60,053 nucleotides of DNA from a phage. A program made the position numbers and the translations under genes. The notes under the pieces are model-generated. The model made no database searches, was not told the DNA's origin, and was given only the letters and a program-made list of their open reading frames with translations. The DNA is taken from NCBI GenBank assembly GCA_012409925.1, contig GCA_012409925.1_4804.1. One strand, given 5' to 3'. Of this stretch, positions 3,970 to 59,020 are shown in pieces. The first letter of the stretch is position 1. Each line of letters starts with the position of its first letter.

Positions 3970-6150
3970 TCACCACTTCAAAGGTGTAGCAGTAAGGTTG
4001 TTTATGTCGTTGATATCATCTTGTTCAAGCACTCGTTTCGTTTCGAATGCCGTGCTGCGTGGGTCTTGAGCGCCGTTGATGTTGATGACAACGTTTTTCT
4101 GACCCATAGTAATATCACGCCCACCAGGTCGACTATTCGCGGAAAGGTCGCCGCCGTATTTCTGGAATGCTTCAAGTTGGAATGCAGCAAGACGAGCGTT
4201 TTTCATAGCTTCGGCTTGAATGTTCGGTCTTACACCTGGAGTTGAAGCCAGTTGCATATTTTTAATATAATCCCTTTGCGTTCCAAGCTTAAGGTAAGTT
4301 TGAGCAAAGTCAATATCACCTTTGTTTACTTGTCCCTGCATCAACTGCTCAACTGGTACGTTCAGGTATCCTGCAATGGCTTCTTGCAATTGCCTGTATT
4401 GCACCGTTTGGCGCGATTGGCCTTGCACTGGTGCATAGCTGCCCTTTGGTGCTTCCGCTCCGCTACCGCTAAGTACTGGAGTGACTGGTGCACCTTGCGG
4501 CGCTGCCGTGGCATACTCACCATTGGATTGTCGGTCGAGAGCGGCCATGACCTTTCCAGGATAAGCGCGTGTATTCTTGCCCCAGCCGCTGCGGTCGTAG
4601 CCGCCGTGATACATCGTCAGCGCAAGATTCCAATCGCCGTTGGCAGCGTTTAAATACTCTTTCAACAGTTGAGCGCCGCCCATAATGTTTTGTCTAGGGT
4701 CGTTGCCGTCTGTGATGCCAAGACCCTTGAAGTTAGAAGGCATGATTTGCATCAAACCAGTCGCGCCTGCTCCGCTCACAGCATTTGGATTGAATCCAGA
4801 TTCGACTTCAGTTACAGCCTTCATCATTGCTACAGGTATGCCATAGCGTTTTGAAGCTTCCTCATATATTGAGTCATATGCTGTCGGATTCCCTGACCCA
4901 AGATTATTCCCTACGGTCGCGCCAGTATTCAATGCTGGTGTTCCAGGCATCGCGGATTGCCCTGCGCTGCGCCCGATTTCACCTGCCCATGCCGCCCAAG
5001 CTTGACGCTCATCAATCACGCCAGCAAAGGTTGACACAGCACTTGAAAAAAGATTTATATCACGAGTAAAAAGAGCCTGTGCAGAACGTTGTTCAGCGGC
5101 GTTCTGTTCTTGATTCCTTTGGCGTTTAACATCGCCATCAGCCATTTGGGTGATCCATCGGTCAACCGCTCTTTCGTGACGTTCGTTGACAGCGGCCTGC
5201 TTGTCGAACGGATGTTTCAAGTCAGCGATGAAGTTGTCGACAAATTCGCTCCATCCGTCAGACATTCTCTGAAACATCATCTGGAATCCTTCGACTGTAT
5301 CAGCAGTTTTGCTGACAAGAGTCGAGAATGCAGGCATGACATTTTCACCAATTACCAACTCAATACGCCGCCAATCTTCTTGAATTTGCCCCATACTATT
5401 TCGTATAGTCTCAAGAGCAGCTTGCTGTCTTTGCAGCTTCGCGGTTTCTTCGTCGCTTATGCGCGTGCTTTCTTTCACAGACTGGTTGCGCTCACGAAGG
5501 GCGCGGACTTCATCGGCGGTAAAACCTGCCAGAGCACCAATAGCACGAGCGGTTTGCTCATTCACACTTCTCAGCTTTGTTCCAATTTCATCAAGCAGCT
5601 GATTCGTGTCTTTGATGCCGCCGTTACTGTTGAAAGGACTTGTCCCCATCTTGTTCAACAACAAGTTGTCCTTGTTCATCACATCGGGGTTGGTGTATGC
5701 ATTGAATGCCAGATTAGAAGCTTTGCTGATTAAGTCTCGCGACCCCTGTGCGCCAAGGATGCCACCTGAACTTTCATTCAACTGTCGTTGTAGTTGTTCG
5801 ACACCCATTGGAGAGAGTCCGGCTTCAAAACCAAGCTTTCTTTGCGCTTCGTATTCTTTTCGAACATCAACGATGGATTTGACGACGACAGCCAATCCTG
5901 CGACAACAGGGACGAGCGCGGCAAAACGATATGTCAGCCGCGCAAGTATTCCGTCAATTGACCCTAGCTCACCAGTAAGCGGCTTTAGCTCGCCAAAAAC
6001 ATCTTTGAATGCTCCAGAGAAATCTTTGCCAGCGGATTTTGCCTTTTTGCTTGTCTGATCAACCTTATCTTGCAATTGCTCAAGACGATTGATGGACTCT
6101 TTCAAGTCCACCGTATATTGAAGCACAAATTTTTCTAATGAGTCAGACAC
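3970..6150 (-). CDS. tail tape-measure protein with internal lytic transglycosylase (SLT) domain
   Basis: 726 aa, coiled-coil-like N-terminal two thirds with a hydrophobic segment (LVPVVAGLAVVVKSIV); SLT signature ...AVTEVESGFNPNAVSGAGATGLMQIMP...TMYHGGY... at approx 4530-4875. Confidence 0.8.
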   Translation of the reverse strand: MSDSLEKFVLQYTVDLKESINRLEQLQDKVDQTSKKAKSAGKDFSGAFKDVFGELKPLTGELGSIDGILARLTYRFAALVPVVAGLAVVVKSIVDVRKEYEAQRKLGFEAGLSPMGVEQLQRQLNESSGGILGAQGSRDLISKASNLAFNAYTNPDVMNKDNLLLNKMGTSPFNSNGGIKDTNQLLDEIGTKLRSVNEQTARAIGALAGFTADEVRALRERNQSVKESTRISDEETAKLQRQQAALETIRNSMGQIQEDWRRIELVIGENVMPAFSTLVSKTADTVEGFQMMFQRMSDGWSEFVDNFIADLKHPFDKQAAVNERHERAVDRWITQMADGDVKRQRNQEQNAAEQRSAQALFTRDINLFSSAVSTFAGVIDERQAWAAWAGEIGRSAGQSAMPGTPALNTGATVGNNLGSGNPTAYDSIYEEASKRYGIPVAMMKAVTEVESGFNPNAVSGAGATGLMQIMPSNFKGLGITDGNDPRQNIMGGAQLLKEYLNAANGDWNLALTMYHGGYDRSGWGKNTRAYPGKVMAALDRQSNGEYATAAPQGAPVTPVLSGSGAEAPKGSYAPVQGQSRQTVQYRQLQEAIAGYLNVPVEQLMQGQVNKGDIDFAQTYLKLGTQRDYIKNMQLASTPGVRPNIQAEAMKNARLAAFQLEAFQKYGGDLSANSRPGGRDITMGQKNVVININGAQDPRSTAFETKRVLEQDDINDINNLTATPLKW

Positions 6151-21701: not shown

Positions 21702-21729
21702 TTGCTTTTGTATCATTTTGAGTTATATT
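21702..21729 (+). promoter_or_regulatory. candidate sigma70-type promoter for plus-strand cassette
   Basis: TTGCTT (21702-21707), 16-nt spacer, TATATT (21724-21729) in the AT-rich divergent region upstream of AAGGAG RBS and ATG 21758. Confidence 0.3.
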
Positions 21730-28969: not shown

Positions 28970-29383
28970 ATGTCAAATAAAAATGATTCTATGAGCCATA
29001 CTTACACTAAAGGCAGCGGCACTGCTTTTGGTTCCAGCATCAAACTTGACGCTCCTGGTTTGCACATCCACAACGTTAATGAAAAATCTGATGTAAGCAG
29101 TCGTGATTTGTCTTTGGTTCTTAAAAATCAACTCGCCTTGGAATCACGGTTGGATAATATTGAGAAGTCGCTGGAAAGTTTGCGCGACCAGCTTTATGGG
29201 CCTTGTCCTGTTGCGGATGATTCAAAGACAGTTAATGTAAATTACGGATTGATCGATAATATGCTTGGAGTCACGTCGCGCTCTGCTGTTAAGGCATATA
29301 ATATTGAAAATCTGATTGGGCAGATTGCTGATGGCTTCGGCACATCTTGCCTTACAGGTATTGAAAGCGATTTCAGTGAATAG
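28970..29383 (+). CDS. hypothetical protein, 137 aa
   Basis: ATG 28970 with AAAGG RBS in track ORF 28904..29383; followed by terminator. Confidence 0.45.
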   Translation: MSNKNDSMSHTYTKGSGTAFGSSIKLDAPGLHIHNVNEKSDVSSRDLSLVLKNQLALESRLDNIEKSLESLRDQLYGPCPVADDSKTVNVNYGLIDNMLGVTSRSAVKAYNIENLIGQIADGFGTSCLTGIESDFSE

Positions 29384-29403
29384 TTGGTAGTGTTGATTTA
29401 ACC

Positions 29404-29445
29404 GTGAATCGTGGGTCGTGGGTCGTGGGTCGTGGGTCGTGGGTC
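29404..29445. repeat. perfect heptamer tandem repeat (GTGGGTC)x5 preceded by one degenerate unit GTGAATC
   Basis: Direct reading: units at 29411, 29418, 29425, 29432, 29439. Confidence 0.95.
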
Positions 29446-29467
29446 GCTTAGTGCGGCCCTTTATTTT
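29441..29467 (+). terminator. rho-independent terminator overlapping last repeat unit
   Basis: GGGTCGC-ttagt-GCGGCCC (one mismatch) followed by TTTATTTT. Confidence 0.45.
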
Positions 29468-30062
29468 GCCTGCCGCGCAGGAGTGTACTGCAAATTTCCT
29501 GTGGGTACAAAATAGTACGGTACTGTCTAGGACTTTTTCTTTGAAAGTTAGTGGACCAAATGTGTCGTATTTTGATTAGTGTACCGCAAATTCCATCAAG
29601 TACCAAAACGCACCAAAAGACCCATGCCATAAAAACCACACGAACGCAATAATCAATCGCCGTTACAGTTTCCAGCGTTACAATTCGAAAGCGAATGATT
29701 CGACGCATAATAATATGAAGCATAATGATTCGAAAGCGAACGATTGCGTGTAGGATAATATCGGTGGGGATTATTCTAGATGCATGTAATTTCGCATGCG
29801 TACTATTTTCGGACGAAGGGTCGGCATATTCCTCGTTTTAGTTCGGAACGAAGGGAAAGTTTTGCGCCTTTATAAAACAACGACTTACGCGACCCGCCCT
29901 AACGGTCCGATATAGGTGTCTATATAAAACAAGGACTTACACGATGTTCTCCATTTAACGTAATACCTGTTATGCGAACTAAGGCGCATCTCGACGAAGA
30001 TTATGCGACGACGAAGGGAAGGATAAAGGAGTTTTCGCGGAGAAGCGCATCGAGATAGGGAC

Positions 30063-30088
30063 GAAGAAAAGCCGCGACTAAGCGCGGC
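30063..30088 (-). terminator. rho-independent terminator ending the minus-strand island operon
   Basis: On minus strand GCCGCG-cttagt-CGCGGC followed by TTTTCTTC. Confidence 0.5.
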
Positions 30089-30114
30089 CTATTAGTAACG
30101 GTGGGTAATTATAA

Positions 30115-30324
30115 TTAAAGGAATAATCCGGCGCGTTTAATTTGTCCCAGGACGTTATCGCGCTTACGACGCATAACCGCGTATTTAACCTCTTCTTCGT
30201 ATCCCCAGCCGCCGATGGATAACATCGCGTTCATATTATCGCATAATTCCTTAAGTTCGCGGAACATATCGATGACGGCGGTACGATGGGCGCGCGCATT
30301 AAGAGAGTTATTCATATTATTCAT
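30115..30324 (-). CDS. small protein, 69 aa
   Basis: ORF track; GGAG RBS overlapping stop of upstream gene; TAA stop. Confidence 0.5.
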   Translation of the reverse strand: MNNMNNSLNARAHRTAVIDMFRELKELCDNMNAMLSIGGWGYEEEVKYAVMRRKRDNVLGQIKRAGLFL

Positions 30325-30335
30325 TTTTCTTCTCC

Positions 30336-30626
30336 TTAAAGGCTTACGATTTTAAAGAAAGTTACTTCGCCGCCGAGTTGCGGGACAGCGATATATTCGC
30401 CGCCGATTTCGGTAATCGTATAGACGAAGCCGTTGATGGTTACGCGGTAGGATACTACGTCCTCGTCGCGATACTTGTAAAGGTCGAGGAGGTTGATCGG
30501 CTCATAAATAGACTCGATAGTCGCGTCTACGTTAGAGAGATAAACGCTCTCTAAGGTTTCGCCAAATACGTTAGAGTTTTCGGAAGTCTCGACGCGAGCG
30601 GAACGGATAGCGGCTAAAGTAATCAT
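30336..30626 (-). CDS. small acidic protein, 96 aa, paralogue of 31262..31546
   Basis: ORF track; AGGAG RBS; net charge about -10; no His/Cys/Trp; shares VY..NVD.TIE and VN.NG(Y/F)...EIG segments with the divergently transcribed paralogue. Confidence 0.6.
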   Translation of the reverse strand: MITLAAIRSARVETSENSNVFGETLESVYLSNVDATIESIYEPINLLDLYKYRDEDVVSYRVTINGFVYTITEIGGEYIAVPQLGGEVTFFKIVSL

Positions 30627-30693
30627 AATAATCTCCTAGCTGGGAGGGCGGGTAGCGACCTATTCGCTACCTCATCCCCTCTCGATATAAAAC

Positions 30694-30722
30694 ATTATAG
30701 TCTTAGTGTACGAAGAAGTAAA
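30694..30722 (-). promoter_or_regulatory. near-consensus sigma70-type promoter (island copy 1)
   Basis: Minus strand reads GTGCTTTACT-17 nt-TATAAT; -35 at 30717-30722, -10 at 30694-30699. Confidence 0.55.
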
Positions 30723-30733
30723 GCACTTTTTCG

Positions 30734-31036
30734 TTATTCTGCGATAAAATATTTATAAGCCTTATCGCCTTCTACGTCGATATACTCGACGATAATTAAC
30801 GCTTCGCCGCGCGGCGTAACCGTCTCGATAAGGGTAACGGCTTCGTCGTCGGTCTTCGCGAATCGGATTGCGCTACGTTCGGCGTATTTAATTTCGTCGA
30901 AGGAGAGGCCGACGAAAGCGACGGCGCGGACCTTAATGGCGCTAGATTCTAGTTCCGCGTTAACGGCGGCGATAAGAGAGCGAACGGTTAAGCGGTCTTC
31001 GTCGTAAGTAAGGATAGAAGAGATTAAAGTGGTCAT
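30734..31036 (-). CDS. small acidic protein, 100 aa
   Basis: ORF track frame; start at ATG 31036 (GGGAG RBS); no His/Cys/Trp/Gln; TAA stop. Confidence 0.55.
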   Translation of the reverse strand: MTTLISSILTYDEDRLTVRSLIAAVNAELESSAIKVRAVAFVGLSFDEIKYAERSAIRFAKTDDEAVTLIETVTPRGEALIIVEYIDVEGDKAYKYFIAE

Positions 31037-31093
31037 AATAAAACTCCCGATGCTATTAGAAGGAAGGGCCATCGCCCGTCTCGATATAAACAA

Positions 31094-31121
31094 GTATACG
31101 CGAGTGTACGAAGAAGTAAAG
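31094..31121 (-). promoter_or_regulatory. near-consensus sigma70-type promoter (island copy 2)
   Basis: Minus strand reads CTTTACT-16 nt-TATACT with the same TTCTTCGTACAC spacer core as copy 1. Confidence 0.5.
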
Positions 31122-31165
31122 AAAAAAAGATAAAATAATTTATCGCATTTTTATCGAAAAAGTGC

Positions 31166-31193
31166 TTTACTTTTTTCTACACTATATTATAAT
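31166..31193 (+). promoter_or_regulatory. near-consensus sigma70-type promoter (island copy 3)
   Basis: AGTGCTTTACT-16 nt-TATAAT; -35 at 31166-31171, -10 at 31188-31193; shares GTGCTTTACT and TACACT with copies 1 and 2. Confidence 0.55.
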
Positions 31194-31261
31194 GTACTCA
31201 TATCGGGACGGGATGAGTTAACGAATAGGTCGTTAACGCCTCTCCCAACTAGGAGTTTAAA

Positions 31262-31546
31262 ATGGCTATTCTTAACGTTTCTTCTATCCGTAACGCTATC
31301 GTCGAGAACTACGGCGTAAAACAAATTTTATCCGAAGTCTACGCCGCGAACGTAGACCAAACTATCGAGGCGGGTGGGGTAACGGTCGCCGAGGCTTTTA
31401 AACTTTACGCGGCGTTACCGGAATCGGACCGCGAAGCCTTCGAAGTAAACGTTAACGGATATTTCTTCGAAGCGGTCGAAATCGGTAATATCTTACTCGT
31501 TATGGGCGAAGAAGAATTTGAGACCTTCTCCCTCGTCGAAGCGTAA
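31262..31546 (+). CDS. small acidic protein, 94 aa, paralogue of 30336..30626
   Basis: ORF track; AGGAG RBS; net charge about -15; no His/Cys/Trp. Confidence 0.6.
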   Translation: MAILNVSSIRNAIVENYGVKQILSEVYAANVDQTIEAGGVTVAEAFKLYAALPESDREAFEVNVNGYFFEAVEIGNILLVMGEEEFETFSLVEA

Positions 31547-31626
31547 GAGAGGATTTTTAGAGCGTCGTGCGCGGCGCTTTAATAAAATTCTTTCGCGCCT
31601 AGCGCCCTAACAAATAGGAGTTTATT

Positions 31627-32253
31627 ATGGTTAGCTTAAATCGTTTCTCGACTAGCGGCGACGTTATCGCAACTAAGACCGCCGACCTCGTTGCATTTTA
31701 TAATGCAAATTCCGGTTCGAAGCCGATTAAGAAATTTGCGGACCGCCGGACCGCCGAGACTCGCGTAATCGCGTTAATCGAGTCCTTAAACGCGCTCGAT
31801 GAGCCATCCAATGAATCGCCCATTCCCGACGCGAAGCCGCGCGAGGAAGTGTCCAGCGATGTAAAAACGCATAAGGCGCGTGCGGTCGTTAAAAAGGCTG
31901 AGCCGACCCAGGAAGAACTCGACGCGATGAGCGATGAAGAATATGAAGCCTTCGTTAAGAGCGGCTTAAACGATAGTGCAAATTGCGTAGTACAAAATGG
32001 AACTCCTTCCCATCGCCGTTCGAATAGCGAAGGTATTGCAAAAAGTTGGGATAATAAGGAAGTGGCGCAAAAGCGTCTTACCCGTAACGGCGTTATGGTC
32101 GAGGGTGTAGGCGAGTTCAAATCGGTCCGCGCAGCATTCGCCGCGCTGGGCTTACCGGACAGCAAGCATATTCGCTTCCGCATGAAGCTTAAAGAAGCTG
32201 GACGCTTGAACTTCGAGTTCGGCAACAAGTCCTTCACCTTCCAGATTATCTAA
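31627..32253 (+). CDS. hypothetical protein, 208 aa
   Basis: ORF track; AGGAG RBS; composition switches mid-gene from the island dialect to ordinary coding. Confidence 0.5.
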   Translation: MVSLNRFSTSGDVIATKTADLVAFYNANSGSKPIKKFADRRTAETRVIALIESLNALDEPSNESPIPDAKPREEVSSDVKTHKARAVVKKAEPTQEELDAMSDEEYEAFVKSGLNDSANCVVQNGTPSHRRSNSEGIAKSWDNKEVAQKRLTRNGVMVEGVGEFKSVRAAFAALGLPDSKHIRFRMKLKEAGRLNFEFGNKSFTFQII

Positions 32254-32260
32254 TCAAATG

Positions 32261-32285
32261 GCGGCCCTTCGAGGTCGCTTTTCAT
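32261..32285 (+). terminator. terminator-like hairpin
   Basis: GCGGCC-cttcga-GGTCGC (one G-U pair) followed by TTTTCAT. Confidence 0.35.
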
Positions 32286-32303
32286 AGTGCAAATTGGTGG
32301 CTT

Positions 32304-32567
32304 ATGAACACGCTTATTCTCATCGCTACGTTGTCCATCGGAAGTGGTCGCACCTTATCGCTGTACGACCATAGTGCAAATTGCGCTTACCCTACGCGCG
32401 TTGCGGCAATAGTTAATAGTGCAAATCGAATGCTATTCGAGACTTGTTGGCGGGTCGATAACGAGAAAGGGCGCATCATCTTAGGTTATAGTGCGAATCT
32501 GCTGGTGGAGTCGTTCGATTGGACGGTTGAAGGTCGTAAATTGTTACGTAAGGTGACTAAAAGATGA
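32304..32567 (+). CDS. hypothetical protein, 87 aa (carries three in-frame motif copies)
   Basis: ORF track; GGTGG RBS; ATAGTGCAAAT-type motif occurs three times in frame as Ser-Ala-Asn, so coding status is uncertain. Confidence 0.35.
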   Translation: MNTLILIATLSIGSGRTLSLYDHSANCAYPTRVAAIVNSANRMLFETCWRVDNEKGRIILGYSANLLVESFDWTVEGRKLLRKVTKR

Positions 32568-32681
32568 CTTATAATAATACACTTTCTAACGCGTTTATGG
32601 TTGTAACCTTCCCCGTCGTATTACCGATGGCCCTAGAAGTGGAGAAAATGTGTTCTAGGGCCGTTTTATAGTGCAAATTGG

Positions 32682-33155
32682 CTAGTGGCGGGAGAATTGC
32701 TCGCCTTCTTTGGCCGCCTCTCCGAAATCCTTGTAGAAATCGTCCATGGAACGGCCCATTTTACTATTGCCGTTTTCATCAATCATCGTGATGCCGTAGA
32801 TGATGTTCAGTTCACGAATAGCATTAAGCTTGGCTGACGCCGCGACTTCTGGATCACGCACAAGCTTGACCAAATTGTGAATTGCACCTTTTACGCTCCA
32901 CAAATCCTTGAGTGGCATCTCTTCCATACGCTTTTTGAAGCGCATCTTGTAGTATGGATTGCGTTGCGTGCAAAGGATTCGCTGGCCAGTGTAGTTATCC
33001 GTTGCAACTTCCATTCCAAATACTAGTGCAAAAGCTGCGCGCATGTCATGGCCCTGAATAACAAGGTCAATGAACTCATCGAATAAAGCCTGATTGTGCT
33101 CTGCAAATCGCGGGTCTTCAAAGTCTTCAGGCATCGCTACATAATCTTGACTCAT
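32682..33155 (-). CDS. hypothetical protein, 157 aa (small-terminase candidate, speculative)
   Basis: ORF track frame from ATG 33155 (MSQDYVAMPEDFEDPRF...); ordinary codon usage; start codon abuts three tandem motif copies. Confidence 0.4.
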   Translation of the reverse strand: MSQDYVAMPEDFEDPRFAEHNQALFDEFIDLVIQGHDMRAAFALVFGMEVATDNYTGQRILCTQRNPYYKMRFKKRMEEMPLKDLWSVKGAIHNLVKLVRDPEVAASAKLNAIRELNIIYGITMIDENGNSKMGRSMDDFYKDFGEAAKEGEQFSRH

Positions 33156-33280
33156 AGTGCAAAATCCCATAGTGCAAATTAATAGTGTGAATTATACAAT
33201 GGATGGACATTATATTCAAGTGCAGATTGATGTTCATTATGGCTATAAACATACACAAATCATAGTGCTGAATGAATAGC

Positions 33281-33874
33281 GGACCGTGGTGCGTGGTGTA
33301 CTGTTTGATACGTATAAAATAAATCCATCCCTTTTGCCGCTTGTTATGCAAATCAATGACTTAGCCGCTGCTGGCTGGTTGAAGCGTATCATGACGTATC
33401 ATCCGTATTGCCGCAAGTCTTTGTTTTTACTTATATCTTACGGATAATACGTATAAATATAAGTTTAGTATAAGTATGAGGATGTAGAAAAAAAATTAAT
33501 TTAAATGTTTTTAAAATGGAGTTAATTAATTTTTAGAATTATTCTGGTTACAATAAGAAAAAATGGCGTATCATCCGTATCATCCGTATGAGTGTACCAG
33601 TAGAATCCAGGCGCGGCGCACCTTACAGCCATGATACGTCTCAATACGGCCAAAAACCTATCCGTAAGAGTGTACGCATCAACCAAAGAATCCAGGCGCG
33701 GCGCACTCTTCCACACCACACACCACGGTTCAATCTCCAAAATCCACACACTAAAAGTCACAATCACCGTATCATTCTCCAAAAATAAATCCAAATTTCC
33801 ATTTTATTTATTATTTTCATCCACAATATCCTAAATTCCATCCGTATCAACCAAGCCTCAACCCACCACGGTCC
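33281..33874. repeat. iteron cluster B: ATCCGTATC-type repeats, 19-bp direct repeat and AT-rich block, bracketed by 11-bp inverted repeat
   Basis: GCGTATCATCCGTATCATCCGTA at 33567-33589 identical to 17181-17203; further copies at 33385-33410, 33437-33457, 33631-33649, 33659-33668, 33766-33777 and 33841-33851; GAATCCAGGCGCGGCGCAC at 33603 and 33688; GGACCGTGGTG (33281) / CACCACGGTCC (33864). Confidence 0.8.
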
Positions 33875-33982
33875 ACGCCACTCACTTCAAAATTTCCATC
33901 AAAAACGACAAAAGGCCGCATAAAGCGACCAATTGTACACGTCCCATTATTCAAAACACGTAAAACAGTGTCCGTTTATTTG

Positions 33983-34519
33983 CTACAATTTAGGCATTAA
34001 TCCTTTGTCAATCCGTCTTTTTATCTCTTCCTCTATCATTTTATTGGTGACTTTATAACCAATCCTTTCTAATTCCAGCAATACTTCCTTTTGGTGTTTC
34101 TTTATTTTTACAATGTCAACCGTATCCCTCCAATAAGATAATACCTTCTTAATGATTTCCTTTTCCATTTTATATCTGGCAGTTGTCATGTATTTCATTT
34201 TAAATATAGAGTTGATTGCGTCAGTCTTCAACCACTCGCCTCTCAACTCAGGGTGATCATCCCAAAGAGCTATGGCAAACTCTTGCGGGCTTTTACATCT
34301 TTTTCTAAGCTCAATTATATAGTCGACCGTTTTCGTTTTCTTATCCAACCTTGCGCGGCAAACTTTGCACTCTTCCTTGAGTAACCATTCAGCCTTATTA
34401 CTTTGCGACGCTGATTCATTATCCCTTCTGTAGCTGCCGCATATACTTATTCCTTCATTATCCAAGAAGTAATGCAAGTCTTTAGAGTATTTAGCTTTAC
34501 GCCAAAAGCCGCCCATCAC
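33983..34519 (-). CDS. hypothetical Lys-rich protein, 178 aa
   Basis: ORF track; AT-rich codon usage differing from neighbours. Confidence 0.45.
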   Translation of the reverse strand: MMGGFWRKAKYSKDLHYFLDNEGISICGSYRRDNESASQSNKAEWLLKEECKVCRARLDKKTKTVDYIIELRKRCKSPQEFAIALWDDHPELRGEWLKTDAINSIFKMKYMTTARYKMEKEIIKKVLSYWRDTVDIVKIKKHQKEVLLELERIGYKVTNKMIEEEIKRRIDKGLMPKL

Positions 34520-52132: not shown

Positions 52133-52161
52133 TTTACTTGTGCGTTTCGATGAGTTATATT
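52133..52161 (+). promoter_or_regulatory. candidate sigma70-type promoter with conserved hairpin/leader (copy A)
   Basis: TTTACT, 17-nt spacer, TATATT; spacer and leader GATGAGTTATATTTACCTCATCGAAACGAA nearly identical to element at 58976-59006. Confidence 0.45.
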
Positions 52162-52197
52162 TACCTCATCGAAACGAAGTCCAAAAAGGATAAATAA

Positions 52198-58959: not shown

Positions 58960-58988
58960 TTGACTTGTCATGGAAGATGAGTCATAAT
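58960..58988 (+). promoter_or_regulatory. candidate sigma70-type promoter with conserved hairpin/leader (copy B)
   Basis: TTGACT, 17-nt spacer, CATAAT; spacer and leader GATGAGTCATAATTACTTCATCGAAACGAA nearly identical to element at 52149-52179. Confidence 0.45.
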
Positions 58989-59020
58989 TACTTCATCGAA
59001 ACGAAACAGAGGAATACAAA

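What the first reader, a model, noticed from the sequence alone, without database searches (positions are those of the whole stretch)
30694..31193. One near-consensus promoter present in three copies, each driving one island gene
The three small genes are each preceded by GTGCTTTACT - 16/17 nt containing TACAC(T) - TATAAT/TATACT (-10 at 30694-30699 and 31094-31099 on minus, 31188-31193 on plus). Triplicated near-consensus host-type promoters over small genes resemble the strong early promoters at the entering end of T7-like genomes. Weaker TTTACT/TTGCTx promoters with 16-17 nt spacers also occur at 21702, 27909, 48883, 52133 and 58960.
Basis: seen in the sequence. Interest (0 to 1): 0.55.

Follow-up and report, generated by a model that had tools for sequence, protein, structure and literature searches.

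The report
Triplicated early promoters in phage terminal repeat
Three near-identical promoters of the kind read by the E. coli host's own RNA polymerase sit in the middle of the 3.9-kb terminal repeat of a Wifcevirus phage; this is an ordinary kind of element, but it lies in a stretch of DNA almost free of the dinucleotides CA and TG, which may be the phage's first-entering anti-restriction module.

Summary
TTTACT-N16/17-TATAAT/TATACT occurs three times within 500 bp (four times in the window; 0.02 expected). The window is a Wifcevirus, an E. coli myophage with no RNA polymerase gene annotated. The promoters lie in the centre of its 3.9-kb direct terminal repeat (window 29616-33517).

Among 14 genomes the promoter cores and the shared AT-rich spacer are almost invariant (0-3 variable columns), while the genes they drive vary at 21-36% of columns.

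Each copy is a compact expression cassette:
- an upstream AT-rich (UP-like) tract
- the core promoter
- an initial transcribed sequence identical to that of T7 A1 (ATCGAGAGGG)
- a 5' hairpin with compensatory changes
- a strong ribosome-binding site
- a small acidic orphan gene

I read them as immediate-early sigma-70 promoters, a new member of a known kind (T7 A1-A3, T5 pre-early).

The unexpected part is the context. About 2 kb around the promoters is purged of CA/TG (observed/expected 0.15-0.3), even at synonymous sites. Published restriction phenotypes of these phages track which enzymes have sites in the repeat. That suggests a T5-like first-entering anti-restriction module, but it is unproven.

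The parts
29616..33517 (.). Direct terminal repeat (DTR) of the phage genome. On the right-hand copy the physical terminus is at the 29616 side; on the left-hand copy it is at the 33517 side.
   Evidence: The 3899-bp DTR of phage SP13 (first and last 3899 nt identical, 0 mismatches) maps to 33517..29616 at 96.5% identity. Mansfield carries a PhageTerm DTR annotation. The WFC paper reports a repeat of about 3.7 kb.
30694..30722 (-). P1 core promoter: -35 TTTACT (30722..30717), 17-nt spacer containing TACACT, -10 TATAAT (30699..30694).
   Evidence: Present in all 13 relatives fetched. 3 of 29 columns vary among 14 genomes.
30723..30765 (-). P1 upstream AT-rich (UP-like) region: TTTTATCGCAGAATAACGAAAAAGTGC. 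It overlaps the 3' end of gene B and contains one EcoKI site (AACGAAAAAGTGC).
   Evidence: shared TTATCGCA..AAAAAGTGC with P3; TTTATC.AAAAAG with T7 A1. (EcoKI site at 30723).
30627..30688 (-). P1 start region and leader. ATATCGAGAGGGG (ATCGAGAGGG from 30686 equals T7 A1 +1..+10); 5' hairpin 30681..30644 (inner stem 30671..30651, loop AAUAGGU); ribosome-binding site TAGGAG 30638..30633.
   Evidence: two compensatory base pairs and a G-U intermediate between the P1- and P3-type leaders..
30336..30626 (-). Gene A: 96 aa, acidic, orphan. Paralogue of gene C.
   Evidence: BLASTP against gene C: E = 6e-7, 32% identity. Family found only in Wifcevirus-sized contigs. No Pfam, PHROG or NCBIfam match.
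30115..30324 (-). Gene D: 69 aa, PHROG 10377 'transcriptional regulator'. Second gene of the P1 unit; absent from most relatives.
30069..30090 (-). Intrinsic terminator that ends the leftward P2/P1 unit.
   Evidence: Annotated at the same place in WFC, WFH and Mansfield.
31093..31120 (-). P2 core promoter: -35 TTTACT (31120..31115), 16-nt spacer containing TACACT, -10 TATACT (31098..31093).
   Evidence: 0 of 28 columns vary among 14 genomes.
31037..31087 (-). P2 start region and leader. ATATCGAGACGGG; short 5' hairpin 31080..31063, replaced in Mansfield by a different hairpin-forming sequence; ribosome-binding site GGGAG 31048..31044.
30734..31036 (-). Gene B: 100 aa, acidic, orphan. Not detectably homologous to genes A or C by sequence.
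   Evidence: The predicted order of secondary-structure elements resembles gene A, but both models are low-confidence.
31121..31165 (.). 45-bp AT-rich spacer between the back-to-back -35 hexamers of P2 and P3. It is the upstream (UP-like) region of both promoters.
   Evidence: 1 of 45 columns varies among 14 genomes.
31166..31193 (+). P3 core promoter: -35 TTTACT, 16-nt spacer containing TACACT, -10 TATAAT.
   Evidence: 1 of 28 columns varies. Full-length alignment to T7 A1.
31200..31261 (+). P3 start region and leader. ATATCGGGACGGG; 5' hairpin 31205-31246 (inner stem 31217-31237, loop AAUAGGU); ribosome-binding site TAGGAG 31250-31255.
31262..31546 (+). Gene C: 94 aa, very acidic. Paralogue of gene A. 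Missing or replaced in several relatives.
31547..31606 (+). Long intercistronic hairpin between genes C and E. It could be a leaky terminator or an RNase III-type processing site.
   Evidence: -32.3 kcal/mol, z = -3.2 against shuffles.
31627..32253 (+). Gene E: 208 aa, PHROG 4730, function unknown. Distal gene of the P3 unit. P3 drives it directly in RCIP0319, Eco4M-7 and Ro157lw.
32260..32279 (+). Intrinsic terminator that ends the rightward P3 unit.
   Evidence: Annotated in WFC and WFH.
29800..31800 (.). Island purged of CA/TG dinucleotides. It contains all three promoters and lies 0.2-2.2 kb from the right physical terminus.

Best explanation
P1, P2 and P3 are strong promoters read by the host's sigma-70 RNA polymerase, and they fire immediately on DNA entry.

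Each is part of a compact high-expression cassette:
- an AT-rich UP-like tract (TTATCG..AAAAAG) upstream
- a TTTACT -35, an optimal 16-17-nt spacer and a TATAAT/TATACT -10
- a start at or near the A of ATCGAG, giving an initial transcribed sequence like that of T7 A1
- a 5'-proximal hairpin, probably an mRNA stabiliser
- a TAGGAG/GGGAG ribosome-binding site 6-7 nt before the ATG
- a small acidic orphan gene

P2 and P3 are back to back and share a 45-bp AT-rich spacer. P1 is a tandem duplicate. The P1 and P3 cassettes are paralogous throughout, from promoter through leader to gene.

Because the cluster lies in the direct terminal repeat (DTR), it is present twice per virion DNA and on whichever end enters first, with at least one promoter pointing inward from either end.

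Shown here: the sequence anatomy, the location in the DTR, the conservation and the resemblance to T7 A1.
Inferred: recognition by sigma-70 holoenzyme, the exact start site, early timing, the hairpin's function and what the gene products do.
For: 1. The motif occurs 4 times against 0.02 expected, three of them within 500 bp and each correctly placed upstream of a gene with a strong ribosome-binding site.
2. All three copies are present in all 13 relatives fetched. Variable alignment columns among 14 genomes: P2 core 0/28, P3 core 1/28, P1 core 3/29, shared spacer 1/45, start region 0/18. Gene A has 106/291 and gene B 64/303.
3. The promoters of the paralogous P1 and P3 cassettes are 77% identical and their leaders 79%, while their proteins are 32% identical. 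P2 keeps the core promoter but has an unrelated leader and gene.
4. No RNA polymerase or sigma factor is annotated in the curated relative Bas99. The distant relative Pbunavirus 14-1 uses host polymerase with sigma-70-like promoters that are active in E. coli (PMC10914365).
5. The annotated T7 A1 start reads ATCGAGAGGG, identical to P1 from 7 nt downstream of its -10. The upstream TTTATC(G)AAAAAG is also shared.
6. The P3 alignment with T7 A1 over -50..+12 scores 17, against a shuffle mean of 7.3, sd 1.4 and maximum 16 in 5000 shuffles.
7. The composite pattern of -35, -10 and ATCGAGAGGG occurs in 2.9 million viral contigs only in T7-like phages, Wifceviruses and one 188-kb contig.
8. The leader hairpin keeps its pairing through two double changes (G-C to U-A; G-C to G-U to A-U) between the P1- and P3-type leaders.
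9. In the surrounding CA/TG-purged DNA, the few CA/TG left in non-coding sequence fall at positions shared by the promoter copies: TATCGCA, GTGC, TACAC, TATAATG, CATATCG and GATGAG. This marks them as constrained.
10. Terminators bound both transcription units.
Against: - There are no transcript, start-site or reporter data for any Wifcevirus in the literature searched.
- The -35 matches the consensus at only 4 of 6 positions, and there is no extended -10 TG.
- By hexamer score alone, 27 sites in the window do as well.
- The spacer TACACT and the downstream block are conserved as strongly as the hexamers. Sigma-70 recognition alone does not require that, so another factor (a repressor, or a polymerase-modifying protein) may also read these sequences.
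- The resemblance to T7 A1 is partly generic. T5 promoters score nearly as high against P3 and higher against P1.
- The leader folds are only weakly better than shuffles (z = -1.3 to -1.6).
- The covariation rests on essentially two sequence types.
Confidence: 0.8

Rival explanations
1. The elements are host-polymerase promoters, but their extra conserved blocks are operators for a phage protein. Candidates are AGTG-N15-CACT flanking the -35 in P1 and P3, TACACT in all three, and ATCGAGAGGG. The phage protein would shut early transcription off or retarget the polymerase, so the unit would be a promoter plus operator rather than a constitutive promoter. This extends the best explanation more than it competes with it.
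For: - Spacer and downstream blocks are as invariant as the hexamers.
- They retain CA/TG in a purged background.
- AGTGC also forms the core of the ATAGTGCAAAT motif repeated nine times nearby.
- The P1 unit of this genome encodes a 69-aa protein filed under a 'transcriptional regulator' PHROG.
- Pbunavirus 14-1 is thought to redirect host polymerase through gp12.
Against: - P2 lacks the left half-site (TTTC instead of GTGC).
- Gene D is absent from most relatives, which nevertheless keep identical promoters.
- No DNA-binding domain was detected in any island protein.
- T7 A1 shares the start-region block without any such operator being known.
Confidence: 0.3
2. The invariant AT-rich divergent region is primarily a cis-acting DNA element of the terminal repeat, such as a replication origin, a packaging or terminase site, or an injection-control site. 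On this view the promoter-like hexamers are incidental.
For: - It lies in the centre of the DTR.
- Conservation is extreme (3 variable positions in about 113 nt).
- The sequence is AT-rich and repeats lie nearby.
- T5's terminal repeat holds conserved non-coding cis elements.
Against: - Each copy sits at a fixed distance upstream of a ribosome-binding site and gene.
- Copies occur in both orientations, always matching the gene's strand.
- P1 has no AT-rich intergenic setting; its upstream part overlaps the end of gene B.
- F13 has a fourth copy duplicated with its leader.
- The sequence is co-linear with T7 A1, an experimentally defined promoter.
Confidence: 0.07
3. The three copies resemble one another only because the cassette duplicated recently or is homogenised by gene conversion. 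On this view the conservation says nothing about function.
For: - P1 and P3 are clearly duplicated cassettes.
- F13 shows an ongoing 303-bp duplication.
Against: - The proteins of the duplicated cassettes have diverged to 32% identity, while the promoters and leaders stay at 77-79%.
- P2 shares only the promoter.
- Across 14 genomes the promoters vary 5- to 10-fold less than the adjacent coding sequence. Gene conversion between copies within one genome would not give that pattern across genomes.
Confidence: 0.04
4. They are phage-specific promoters that need a virion-delivered or phage-encoded factor rather than plain sigma-70 holoenzyme.
For: - An approximately 60-nt block is conserved well beyond the hexamers.
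- Pbunavirus 14-1 has a second, non-sigma-70 promoter class that is inactive in uninfected cells.
Against: - No RNA polymerase or sigma factor is annotated.
- The -10, the spacing and the UP-like tract are canonical.
- The sequence resembles T7 A1 and T5 promoters, which plain holoenzyme reads.
Confidence: 0.06

Closest known systems
T7 early promoters A1, A2 and A3 (E. coli RNA polymerase promoters at the entering left end of T7, upstream of gene 0.3/ocr)
   Same: - A cluster of three strong host-type promoters near a genome end, upstream of small early genes.
- P1's start region equals T7 A1 +1..+10, and the upstream TTTATC(G)AAAAAG is shared.
- P3 aligns with A1 over -50..+12.
- A long intercistronic hairpin recalls the RNase III sites of T7 early mRNA (the T7 comparison here is from general knowledge).
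   Different: - The T7 promoters are tandem and all point inward. Here there is a divergent pair plus a tandem duplicate.
- The T7 promoters lie outside its 160-bp terminal repeat. These lie inside a 3.9-kb repeat.
- The -35 is TTTACT rather than TTGACT/TTGACA.
- The three copies are paralogues of one another, whereas A1-A3 are dissimilar in sequence.
- No ocr homologue was detected.
T5 pre-early promoters and genes in the long terminal repeat (first-step-transfer DNA)
   Same: - Host-polymerase promoters inside a long DTR.
- Divergent promoters sit in the middle of the repeat, with small genes running both ways (T5 annotation).
- Conserved repeat arrays lie at the inner part of the repeat.
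- Resistance to restriction depends on whether sites lie in the first-entering DNA.
- CpG excess is confined to the repeat: T5 1.3-1.5 against 0.65-0.9 outside.
   Different: - The repeat is 3.9 kb rather than 10.2 kb.
- The phage is a myovirus, not a siphovirus.
- No A1, A2 or dmp homologues were detected by family scans.
- T5 has no CA/TG purge.
- Two-step DNA transfer has not been shown for Wifcevirus.
Host-takeover module in the terminal redundancy of Bacillus phage SPO1 (recalled from the literature, not tested here)
   Same: Many strong host-sigma early promoters with strong ribosome-binding sites drive small orphan genes inside a long terminal redundancy.
   Different: - Different host and sigma factor (sigma-A).
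- About 12 promoters and 24 genes in 13 kb.
- No sequence comparison was made here.
Sigma-70-like promoters of Pbunavirus 14-1, a distant relative of Wifcevirus
   Same: - A related phage lineage that depends on the host polymerase.
- Its sigma-70-like promoters were validated as active in E. coli (PMC10914365).
   Different: - No terminal-repeat promoter cluster has been described for it.
- No CA/TG-purged island was found in the 34 kb of 14-1 sampled.

Membership tests
Sigma-70 (housekeeping) bacterial promoter | -10 hexamer close to TATAAT, with A at position 2 and T at position 6 | tested here: met
   TATAAT (P1, P3) and TATACT (P2).
Sigma-70 (housekeeping) bacterial promoter | -35 hexamer close to TTGACA, 16-18 nt upstream of the -10 | tested here: met
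   TTTACT matches at 4 of 6 positions; spacers are 17, 16 and 16 nt. The two mismatches are exactly the bases that would create a TG and a CA dinucleotide.
Sigma-70 (housekeeping) bacterial promoter | A/T-rich UP element at about -40 to -60 (for strong promoters) | tested here: inconclusive
   A tract AAAAAG just upstream of the -35 in P1 and P3, a T-tract further upstream, and a 45-bp AT-rich spacer shared by P2 and P3. I compared these with the published UP consensus from memory only. The match to the T7 A1 upstream region was tested.
Sigma-70 (housekeeping) bacterial promoter | A mapped transcription start 6-8 nt downstream of the -10, and activity with holoenzyme | not testable with these tools
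   No transcript data for Wifcevirus were found.
T7-type early promoter cluster at the entering genome end | Location within the first DNA to enter the cell | tested here: inconclusive
   Inside the DTR, 1.6 kb (P3) from the right terminus and 2.4-2.8 kb (P2, P1) from the left terminus. Which end enters first is unknown.
T7-type early promoter cluster at the entering genome end | Sequence relationship to A1, A2 or A3 | tested here: met
   Met for A1 only. The 10-nt start region is identical in P1, and P3 aligns over the full length beyond all 5000 shuffles. A2 and A3 score at background level.
T7-type early promoter cluster at the entering genome end | All promoters oriented inward, so that transcription can draw the genome in | tested here: not met
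   The promoters diverge. P3 points inward from the right end; P1 and P2 point inward from the left end.
T5-type pre-early (first-step-transfer) module | Host-type promoters and small genes inside a long terminal repeat | tested here: met
T5-type pre-early (first-step-transfer) module | Homologues of A1, A2 or dmp | tested here: not met
   No Pfam, PHROG or NCBIfam family beyond two uninformative PHROGs. There was no direct profile comparison with T5 A1 or A2.
T5-type pre-early (first-step-transfer) module | Restriction outcome determined by sites in the first-entering DNA | tested here: inconclusive
   Consistent, but it rests on two informative enzymes. EcoP1_I (AGACC) has 5-7 sites in the DTR, and Bas99 raw data show no plaques. 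EcoCFT_II (site inferred as CACAG) has 0-1 sites against about 5 expected, and the phages are resistant.
T5-type pre-early (first-step-transfer) module | Two-step DNA transfer with an injection stop signal | not testable with these tools
   A conserved array of nine co-oriented ATAGTGCAAAT motifs lies just inward of the island. Its function is unknown.
T4 middle promoter (MotA/AsiA-dependent) | MotA box (a/t)(a/t)TGCTT(t/c)A centred at -30, 11-13 bp from the -10, replacing the -35 | tested here: not met
   TGCTTTA is present in P1 and P3 but ends 19-20 nt upstream of the -10, and it is absent from P2. No MotA or AsiA is annotated. The box consensus is recalled from the literature.
Known RNA family for the leader | Match to an Rfam covariance model | tested here: not met
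   No relevant Rfam hit in 29000-34000 at E <= 1.

The most novel reading that the evidence does not exclude
The three promoters control a T5-like 'pre-early' module in a myovirus. On this reading, the terminal approximately 2 kb of the repeat (29800-31800) is the first, or at first the only, DNA exposed in the cell.

That stretch has been stripped of CA/TG dinucleotides at every codon phase, and even at the cost of His, Gln, Cys, Trp and Met. Two purposes are possible:
- to escape host nucleases, or
- to escape a CA/TG-dependent nuclease made by the phage itself.

Its strongly expressed small acidic proteins would then neutralise restriction for the rest of the genome.

This would explain a published puzzle. 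Wifceviruses resist every restriction system tested except EcoP1_I, whose site AGACC lacks CA/TG and occurs 5-7 times in the repeat. They resist EcoCFT_II (site inferred here as CACAG), which is equally frequent genome-wide but has 0-1 sites in the repeat.
Probability: 0.25. Interest if true: 0.85.

Novelty: new member of a known kind. Interest (0 to 1): 0.45.

Why it matters
The promoters themselves are a textbook kind of element. They are useful mainly as the first concrete map of early transcription signals for Wifcevirus. This genus was reported to lyse cells within 3-5 min and to resist nearly all tested defences without any known protection mechanism.

They matter more for what they point to.
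- They mark a short list of five small genes (A-E) as the immediate-early products, and so as the prime candidates for the unexplained anti-restriction activity.
- They sit in a 2-kb stretch with a dinucleotide signature (CA/TG about 0.2, CG and TA about 1.9 times the genome level). I found no description of this in the searched literature.
- The correlation between restriction phenotype and sites in the repeat turns the published EcoP1_I versus EcoCFT_II puzzle into a directly testable hypothesis.
- The compact cassettes (UP-like tract, core promoter, T7 A1-like start, 5' hairpin, strong ribosome-binding site) may also serve as strong expression parts free of CA/TG.

Tried and rejected
- **Function of the driven genes.** Pfam, PHROG and NCBIfam scans, a Protein Data Bank sequence search for gene D, a 5.8-billion-protein search and an exhaustive profile search found the family only in Wifceviruses. 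The one addition was weak repeated matches to bacterial Ig-like (Big_13) repeat proteins, which I treat as compositional. AlphaFold models of genes A and B were low-confidence (pLDDT 59.5 and 57.8), and the fold search gave only the WFH orthologue.
- **'Three paralogous genes'.** This holds only for A and C. B is not detectably related.
- **Rfam match for the leaders.** None.
- **MotA-box reading of GTGCTTTA.** Rejected on spacing and on its absence from P2.
- **TACACT as an alternative -10.** Rejected: there is no usable -35 at 16-18 nt, and the conserved 5' hairpin fits a start downstream of TATAAT.
- **Homology versus convergence with T7 A1.** Not resolved, because T5 promoters score almost as well.
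- **Explanations for the CA/TG purge.**
  - Codon usage or horizontal origin: rejected. The purge occurs in all three codon phases and in non-coding DNA, its boundary falls inside gene E, and it is present whatever the gene content in relatives.
  - Avoidance of one specific site: rejected. All eight CA/TG-containing trinucleotides are depleted, and no other 4-mer is.
  - Generic restriction-site avoidance: only partly supported. The island has the fewest distinct type II site types of any 2-kb window (277 against 347 +/- 16), but the total number of sites is unchanged.
  - Mutational causes (deamination, RIP-like): considered, but they do not explain the CpG gain at constant G+C.
- **The same island elsewhere.** T5's repeat shows only a CpG excess. 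Pbunavirus 14-1 shows nothing in the 34 kb sampled.
Full report
**What the window is.** The region 29500-33500 matches 29 Escherichia/Shigella phage records of the genus Wifcevirus at 92-97% identity. An IMG/VR contig of 68,520 nt encodes an identical gene C. Wifceviruses are myophages of about 68 kb with a direct terminal repeat (DTR) of 3.7-3.9 kb (PhageTerm annotation in Mansfield). The first and last 3899 nt of phage SP13 are identical, and they map to window 33517..29616 at 96.5% identity. The finding therefore lies in the centre of the DTR. On the right-hand copy the physical terminus is at the 29616 side, so P3 is about 1.6 kb from that end. On the left-hand copy, P2 and P1 are 2.4 and 2.8 kb from the 33517 end.

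**Checking the observation.** The three sites exist:
- P1, minus strand: TTTACT at 30722..30717, 17-nt spacer, TATAAT at 30699..30694.
- P2, minus strand: TTTACT at 31120..31115, 16-nt spacer, TATACT at 31098..31093.
- P3, plus strand: TTTACT at 31166-31171, 16-nt spacer, TATAAT at 31188-31193.

TACACT occupies the same spacer register in all three. GTGC precedes the -35 only in P1 and P3. The pattern TTTACT-N16/17-TATAMT has 4 matches in the window against 0.02 expected. By hexamer score alone they are not special, since 27 sites in the window reach 10 or more of 12. The signal is the near-identical triplication directly upstream of genes.

Those at 52133 and 58960 share extra sequence with each other and form a separate class in the replication-gene block.

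**Anatomy.** Aligning the copies shows that the repeat is a whole cassette:
- an upstream TTATCGCA..AAAAAG tract
- the core promoter
- ATATCG(A/G)GA(G/C)GG
- a leader
- a TAGGAG or GGGAG ribosome-binding site 6-7 nt before the ATG

P1 and P3 are 77% identical in the upstream tract, 77% in the core and 79% in the leader. Their genes A and C are paralogues at 32% amino-acid identity (BLASTP E = 6e-7). P2 shares only the core and start region (69-83%). Its leader is unrelated, and its gene B is not detectably homologous to A or C. The low-confidence models of A and B do show the same order of helices and strands.

P2 and P3 are back to back, with 45 AT-rich bp between their -35 hexamers. P1's -35 begins only 12 nt after the stop codon of gene B, with no terminator between them. 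P2 transcripts should therefore read through gene B into genes A and D, as far as the terminator at 30069-30090. P3 reads gene C, a very stable intercistronic hairpin (31547-31606; -32 kcal/mol, z = -3.2) and gene E, up to a terminator at 32260-32279. 'One gene each' is therefore only approximately right. In RCIP0319, Eco4M-7 and Ro157lw, gene C is missing and P3 drives gene E directly. F13 has a fourth copy, a duplicated P1.

**Conservation.** All three copies occur in all 13 relatives fetched. In a 14-genome alignment, the variable columns are:

| Region | Variable columns |
|---|---|
| P2 core | 0/28 |
| P3 core | 1/28 |
| P1 core | 3/29 |
| Shared AT-rich spacer | 1/45 |
| P1 start region | 0/18 |
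| Gene A | 106/291 |
| Gene B | 64/303 |

The control region is thus held far more tightly than the proteins it drives. Recent duplication alone does not account for this.

**Leader structure.** The P1 and P3 leaders fold into a 5'-proximal hairpin with an 8-bp inner stem and the loop AAUAGGU. Across 10 distinct leader variants, the inner stem keeps pairing through G-C to U-A at one pair. At another it runs G-C to G-U to A-U, with the G-U form present in four genomes. The outer stem's 3' arm differs between genomes while remaining complementary. In Mansfield the short P2 hairpin is replaced by a different hairpin-forming sequence. The folds are only modestly better than shuffles (z = -1.3 to -1.6), and the covariation rests on few independent events, so a 5' stabilising hairpin is an inference. 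There is no Rfam match.

**Is it a host-polymerase promoter?** No RNA polymerase or sigma factor is annotated in the curated Bas99 genome. The distant relative Pbunavirus 14-1 depends on the host polymerase, and its sigma-70-like promoters were shown to work in E. coli.

- The annotated T7 A1 start reads ATCGAGAGGG. This is identical to P1 starting 7 nt after its -10. The upstream TTTATC(G)AAAAAG is shared in near register.
- P3 aligns with A1 over the whole -50..+12 interval. The score is 17, against a shuffle mean of 7.3, sd 1.4 and maximum 16 in 5000 shuffles.
- A2 and A3 score at background level.
- The composite pattern (-35, -10 and ATCGAGAGGG) was found in 2.9 million viral contigs only in T7-like phages, Wifceviruses and one 188-kb contig.
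- T5 promoters score nearly as high against P3 and higher against P1.

I therefore read the resemblance as membership of the class of strong coliphage sigma-70 promoters. Homology and convergence remain unresolved.

**Context: a CA/TG-free island.** The promoters lie in about 2 kb (29800-31800) with an extreme dinucleotide signature.

| Dinucleotide | Island, observed/expected | Genome, observed/expected |
|---|---|---|
| TG | 0.15-0.32 | 1.13 |
| CA | 0.20-0.43 | 1.14 |
| CG | 2.1-2.2 (highest in the window) | 1.14 |
| TA | 1.2-1.4 | 0.70 |

All other dinucleotides are at about genome level. All eight CA/TG-containing trinucleotides are depleted (0.09-0.49), and no other 4-mer is.

The purge has these properties:
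- It affects all three codon phases and non-coding DNA.
- Genes A, B and C hold 9, 5 and 6 CA/TG. Recoding the same proteins with the genome's codon usage gives 34-36, with a minimum of 20 in 2000 simulations.
- The three proteins contain 7 His, Gln, Cys, Trp or Met residues in 293, against 10.5% elsewhere in the genome.
- The inner boundary falls inside gene E.
- The signature is present in every relative, whatever its gene content.

The two mismatches of TTTACT to TTGACA are exactly the bases that would create a TG and a CA. The few CA/TG left in non-coding DNA sit at positions shared by the promoter copies, which independently marks GTGC, TACAC, TATAATG and GATGAG as constrained.

T5's terminal repeat shows a weaker CpG excess (1.3-1.5 against 0.65-0.9 outside) but no CA/TG loss. 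The 34 kb sampled from Pbunavirus 14-1 shows nothing similar. I found no description of such an island in the searched literature.

[quoted passage not shown] Raw data for Bas99 show no plaques on EcoP1_I and a plating efficiency of about 1 on the other systems with recorded counts; no EcoKI count appears in the excerpt retrieved.

The EcoCFT_II site is given only in a figure, so I inferred it. CACAG is the only 5-mer whose counts reproduce the published 92 (Bas99) and 93 (Bas98). The same counting reproduces the published numbers for AGACC, EcoRI, EcoRV, EcoKI and EcoAI.

| Enzyme and site | Window DTR | Bas99 repeat region | Bas98 repeat region |
|---|---|---|---|
| EcoCFT_II, CACAG (inferred) | 0 (78 in the 60-kb window) | 0 (4.9 expected, P = 0.007) | 1 |
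| EcoP1_I, AGACC | 7, in both orientations | 6 | 5 |
| EcoRI, EcoRV, EcoAI-type | 0 (1 or fewer expected, uninformative) | 0 | 0 |
| EcoKI | 1, inside P1 | 1 | 0 |

Restriction sensitivity thus tracks the site content of the repeat, as is known for T5 first-step-transfer DNA. This rests on only two informative enzymes and an inferred recognition site, so I present it as a hypothesis and not a result.

**Verdict.** The finding is real, and its interpretation is largely right. These are very probably immediate-early sigma-70 promoters (confidence 0.8), a new member of a known kind. On their own they are of modest interest. The surrounding CA/TG-purged island and the restriction correlation are the unusual parts, and they give the promoters a testable role as the switch of a first-entering anti-restriction module (probability about 0.25).

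Noticed in passing
window 29800-31800: A stretch of about 2 kb is almost purged of CA/TG dinucleotides (observed/expected 0.15-0.43 against 1.13 for the genome). CG and TA are raised about 1.9-fold in compensation. The purge occurs in all codon phases and in non-coding DNA, and the proteins nearly lack His, Gln, Cys, Trp and Met. It is conserved in all relatives whatever their gene content. The cause is unknown.
   Followed up: partly
window 31700-33179, plus strand: Nine co-oriented copies of ATAGTGCAAAT (1 mismatch or fewer), against 1.7 expected for the whole window. They lie in genes on both strands and in intergenic DNA, just inward of the purged island, and they overlap the gene Mansfield annotates as small terminase. 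Relatives carry 7-10 copies on the same strand. Candidate roles are terminase recognition, an injection-stop or regulator array, or phage-specific promoters.
   Followed up: partly
window DTR 29616-33517; Bas98 and Bas99 genomes (L014, L015, L033-L035, L009): Published restriction phenotypes of Wifceviruses match the site content of the repeat. EcoP1_I (AGACC) has 5-7 sites there and the phages are very sensitive. EcoCFT_II, inferred here to recognise CACAG, has 0-1 sites there against about 5 expected, and the phages are resistant.
   Followed up: yes
window 29800-30070, and 30422, 30709, 31107: The motif (G)ACGAAG(G) recurs. Five copies on the plus strand lie in the non-coding 270 bp between the DTR boundary and the leftward terminator. 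It also occurs, as its complement CTTCGT, inside the spacers of P1 and P2.
   Followed up: no
window 29403-29446, 29674-29761, 29868-29944: Repeats flank the inner DTR boundary at 29616. There is a tandem CGTGGGT-containing 14-nt repeat in three copies just outside the DTR, and two pairs of 25-43-nt direct repeats just inside it.
   Followed up: no
window 52133-52180 and 58960-59006, plus strand: Two promoter-like sites in the replication-gene block share TTkACT-N17-(T/C)ATAwT followed by TACyTCATCGAAACGAA. An inverted repeat (GATGAG..CTCATC) brackets the -10. This is probably a distinct, possibly regulated, promoter class.
   Followed up: partly
window 31547-31606, plus strand: There is a very stable long hairpin between genes C and E (-32.3 kcal/mol, z = -3.2). 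It could be a leaky terminator or an RNase III-type processing site like those between T7 early genes.
   Followed up: partly
window 30723-30735, minus strand: The only EcoKI site (AAC N6 GTGC) in the DTR lies within the UP/-35 region of P1, as AACGAAAAAGTGC.
   Followed up: no
L030 (phage T5, 1-30000): T5's 10.2-kb terminal repeat has CpG observed/expected of 1.3-1.5, against 0.65-0.9 in the adjacent unique DNA. This is a weaker, CpG-only parallel to the Wifcevirus island. T5 also has divergent annotated promoters in the middle of its repeat.
   Followed up: partly
L020 (IMGVR_UViG_3300028833_000063, 188 kb), 6045-6089: An unrelated large phage contig carries TTGACT-17-TATACT followed by ATCGAGAGGGGG, the same start sequence as T7 A1 and Wifcevirus P1. 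About one such hit is expected by chance in the collection.
   Followed up: no
L004 (phage F13), 2872-3175: F13 has a 303-bp tandem duplication that gives a fourth promoter copy. Where the start codon of the extra copy would be, the sequence reads ACG instead of ATG.
   Followed up: no
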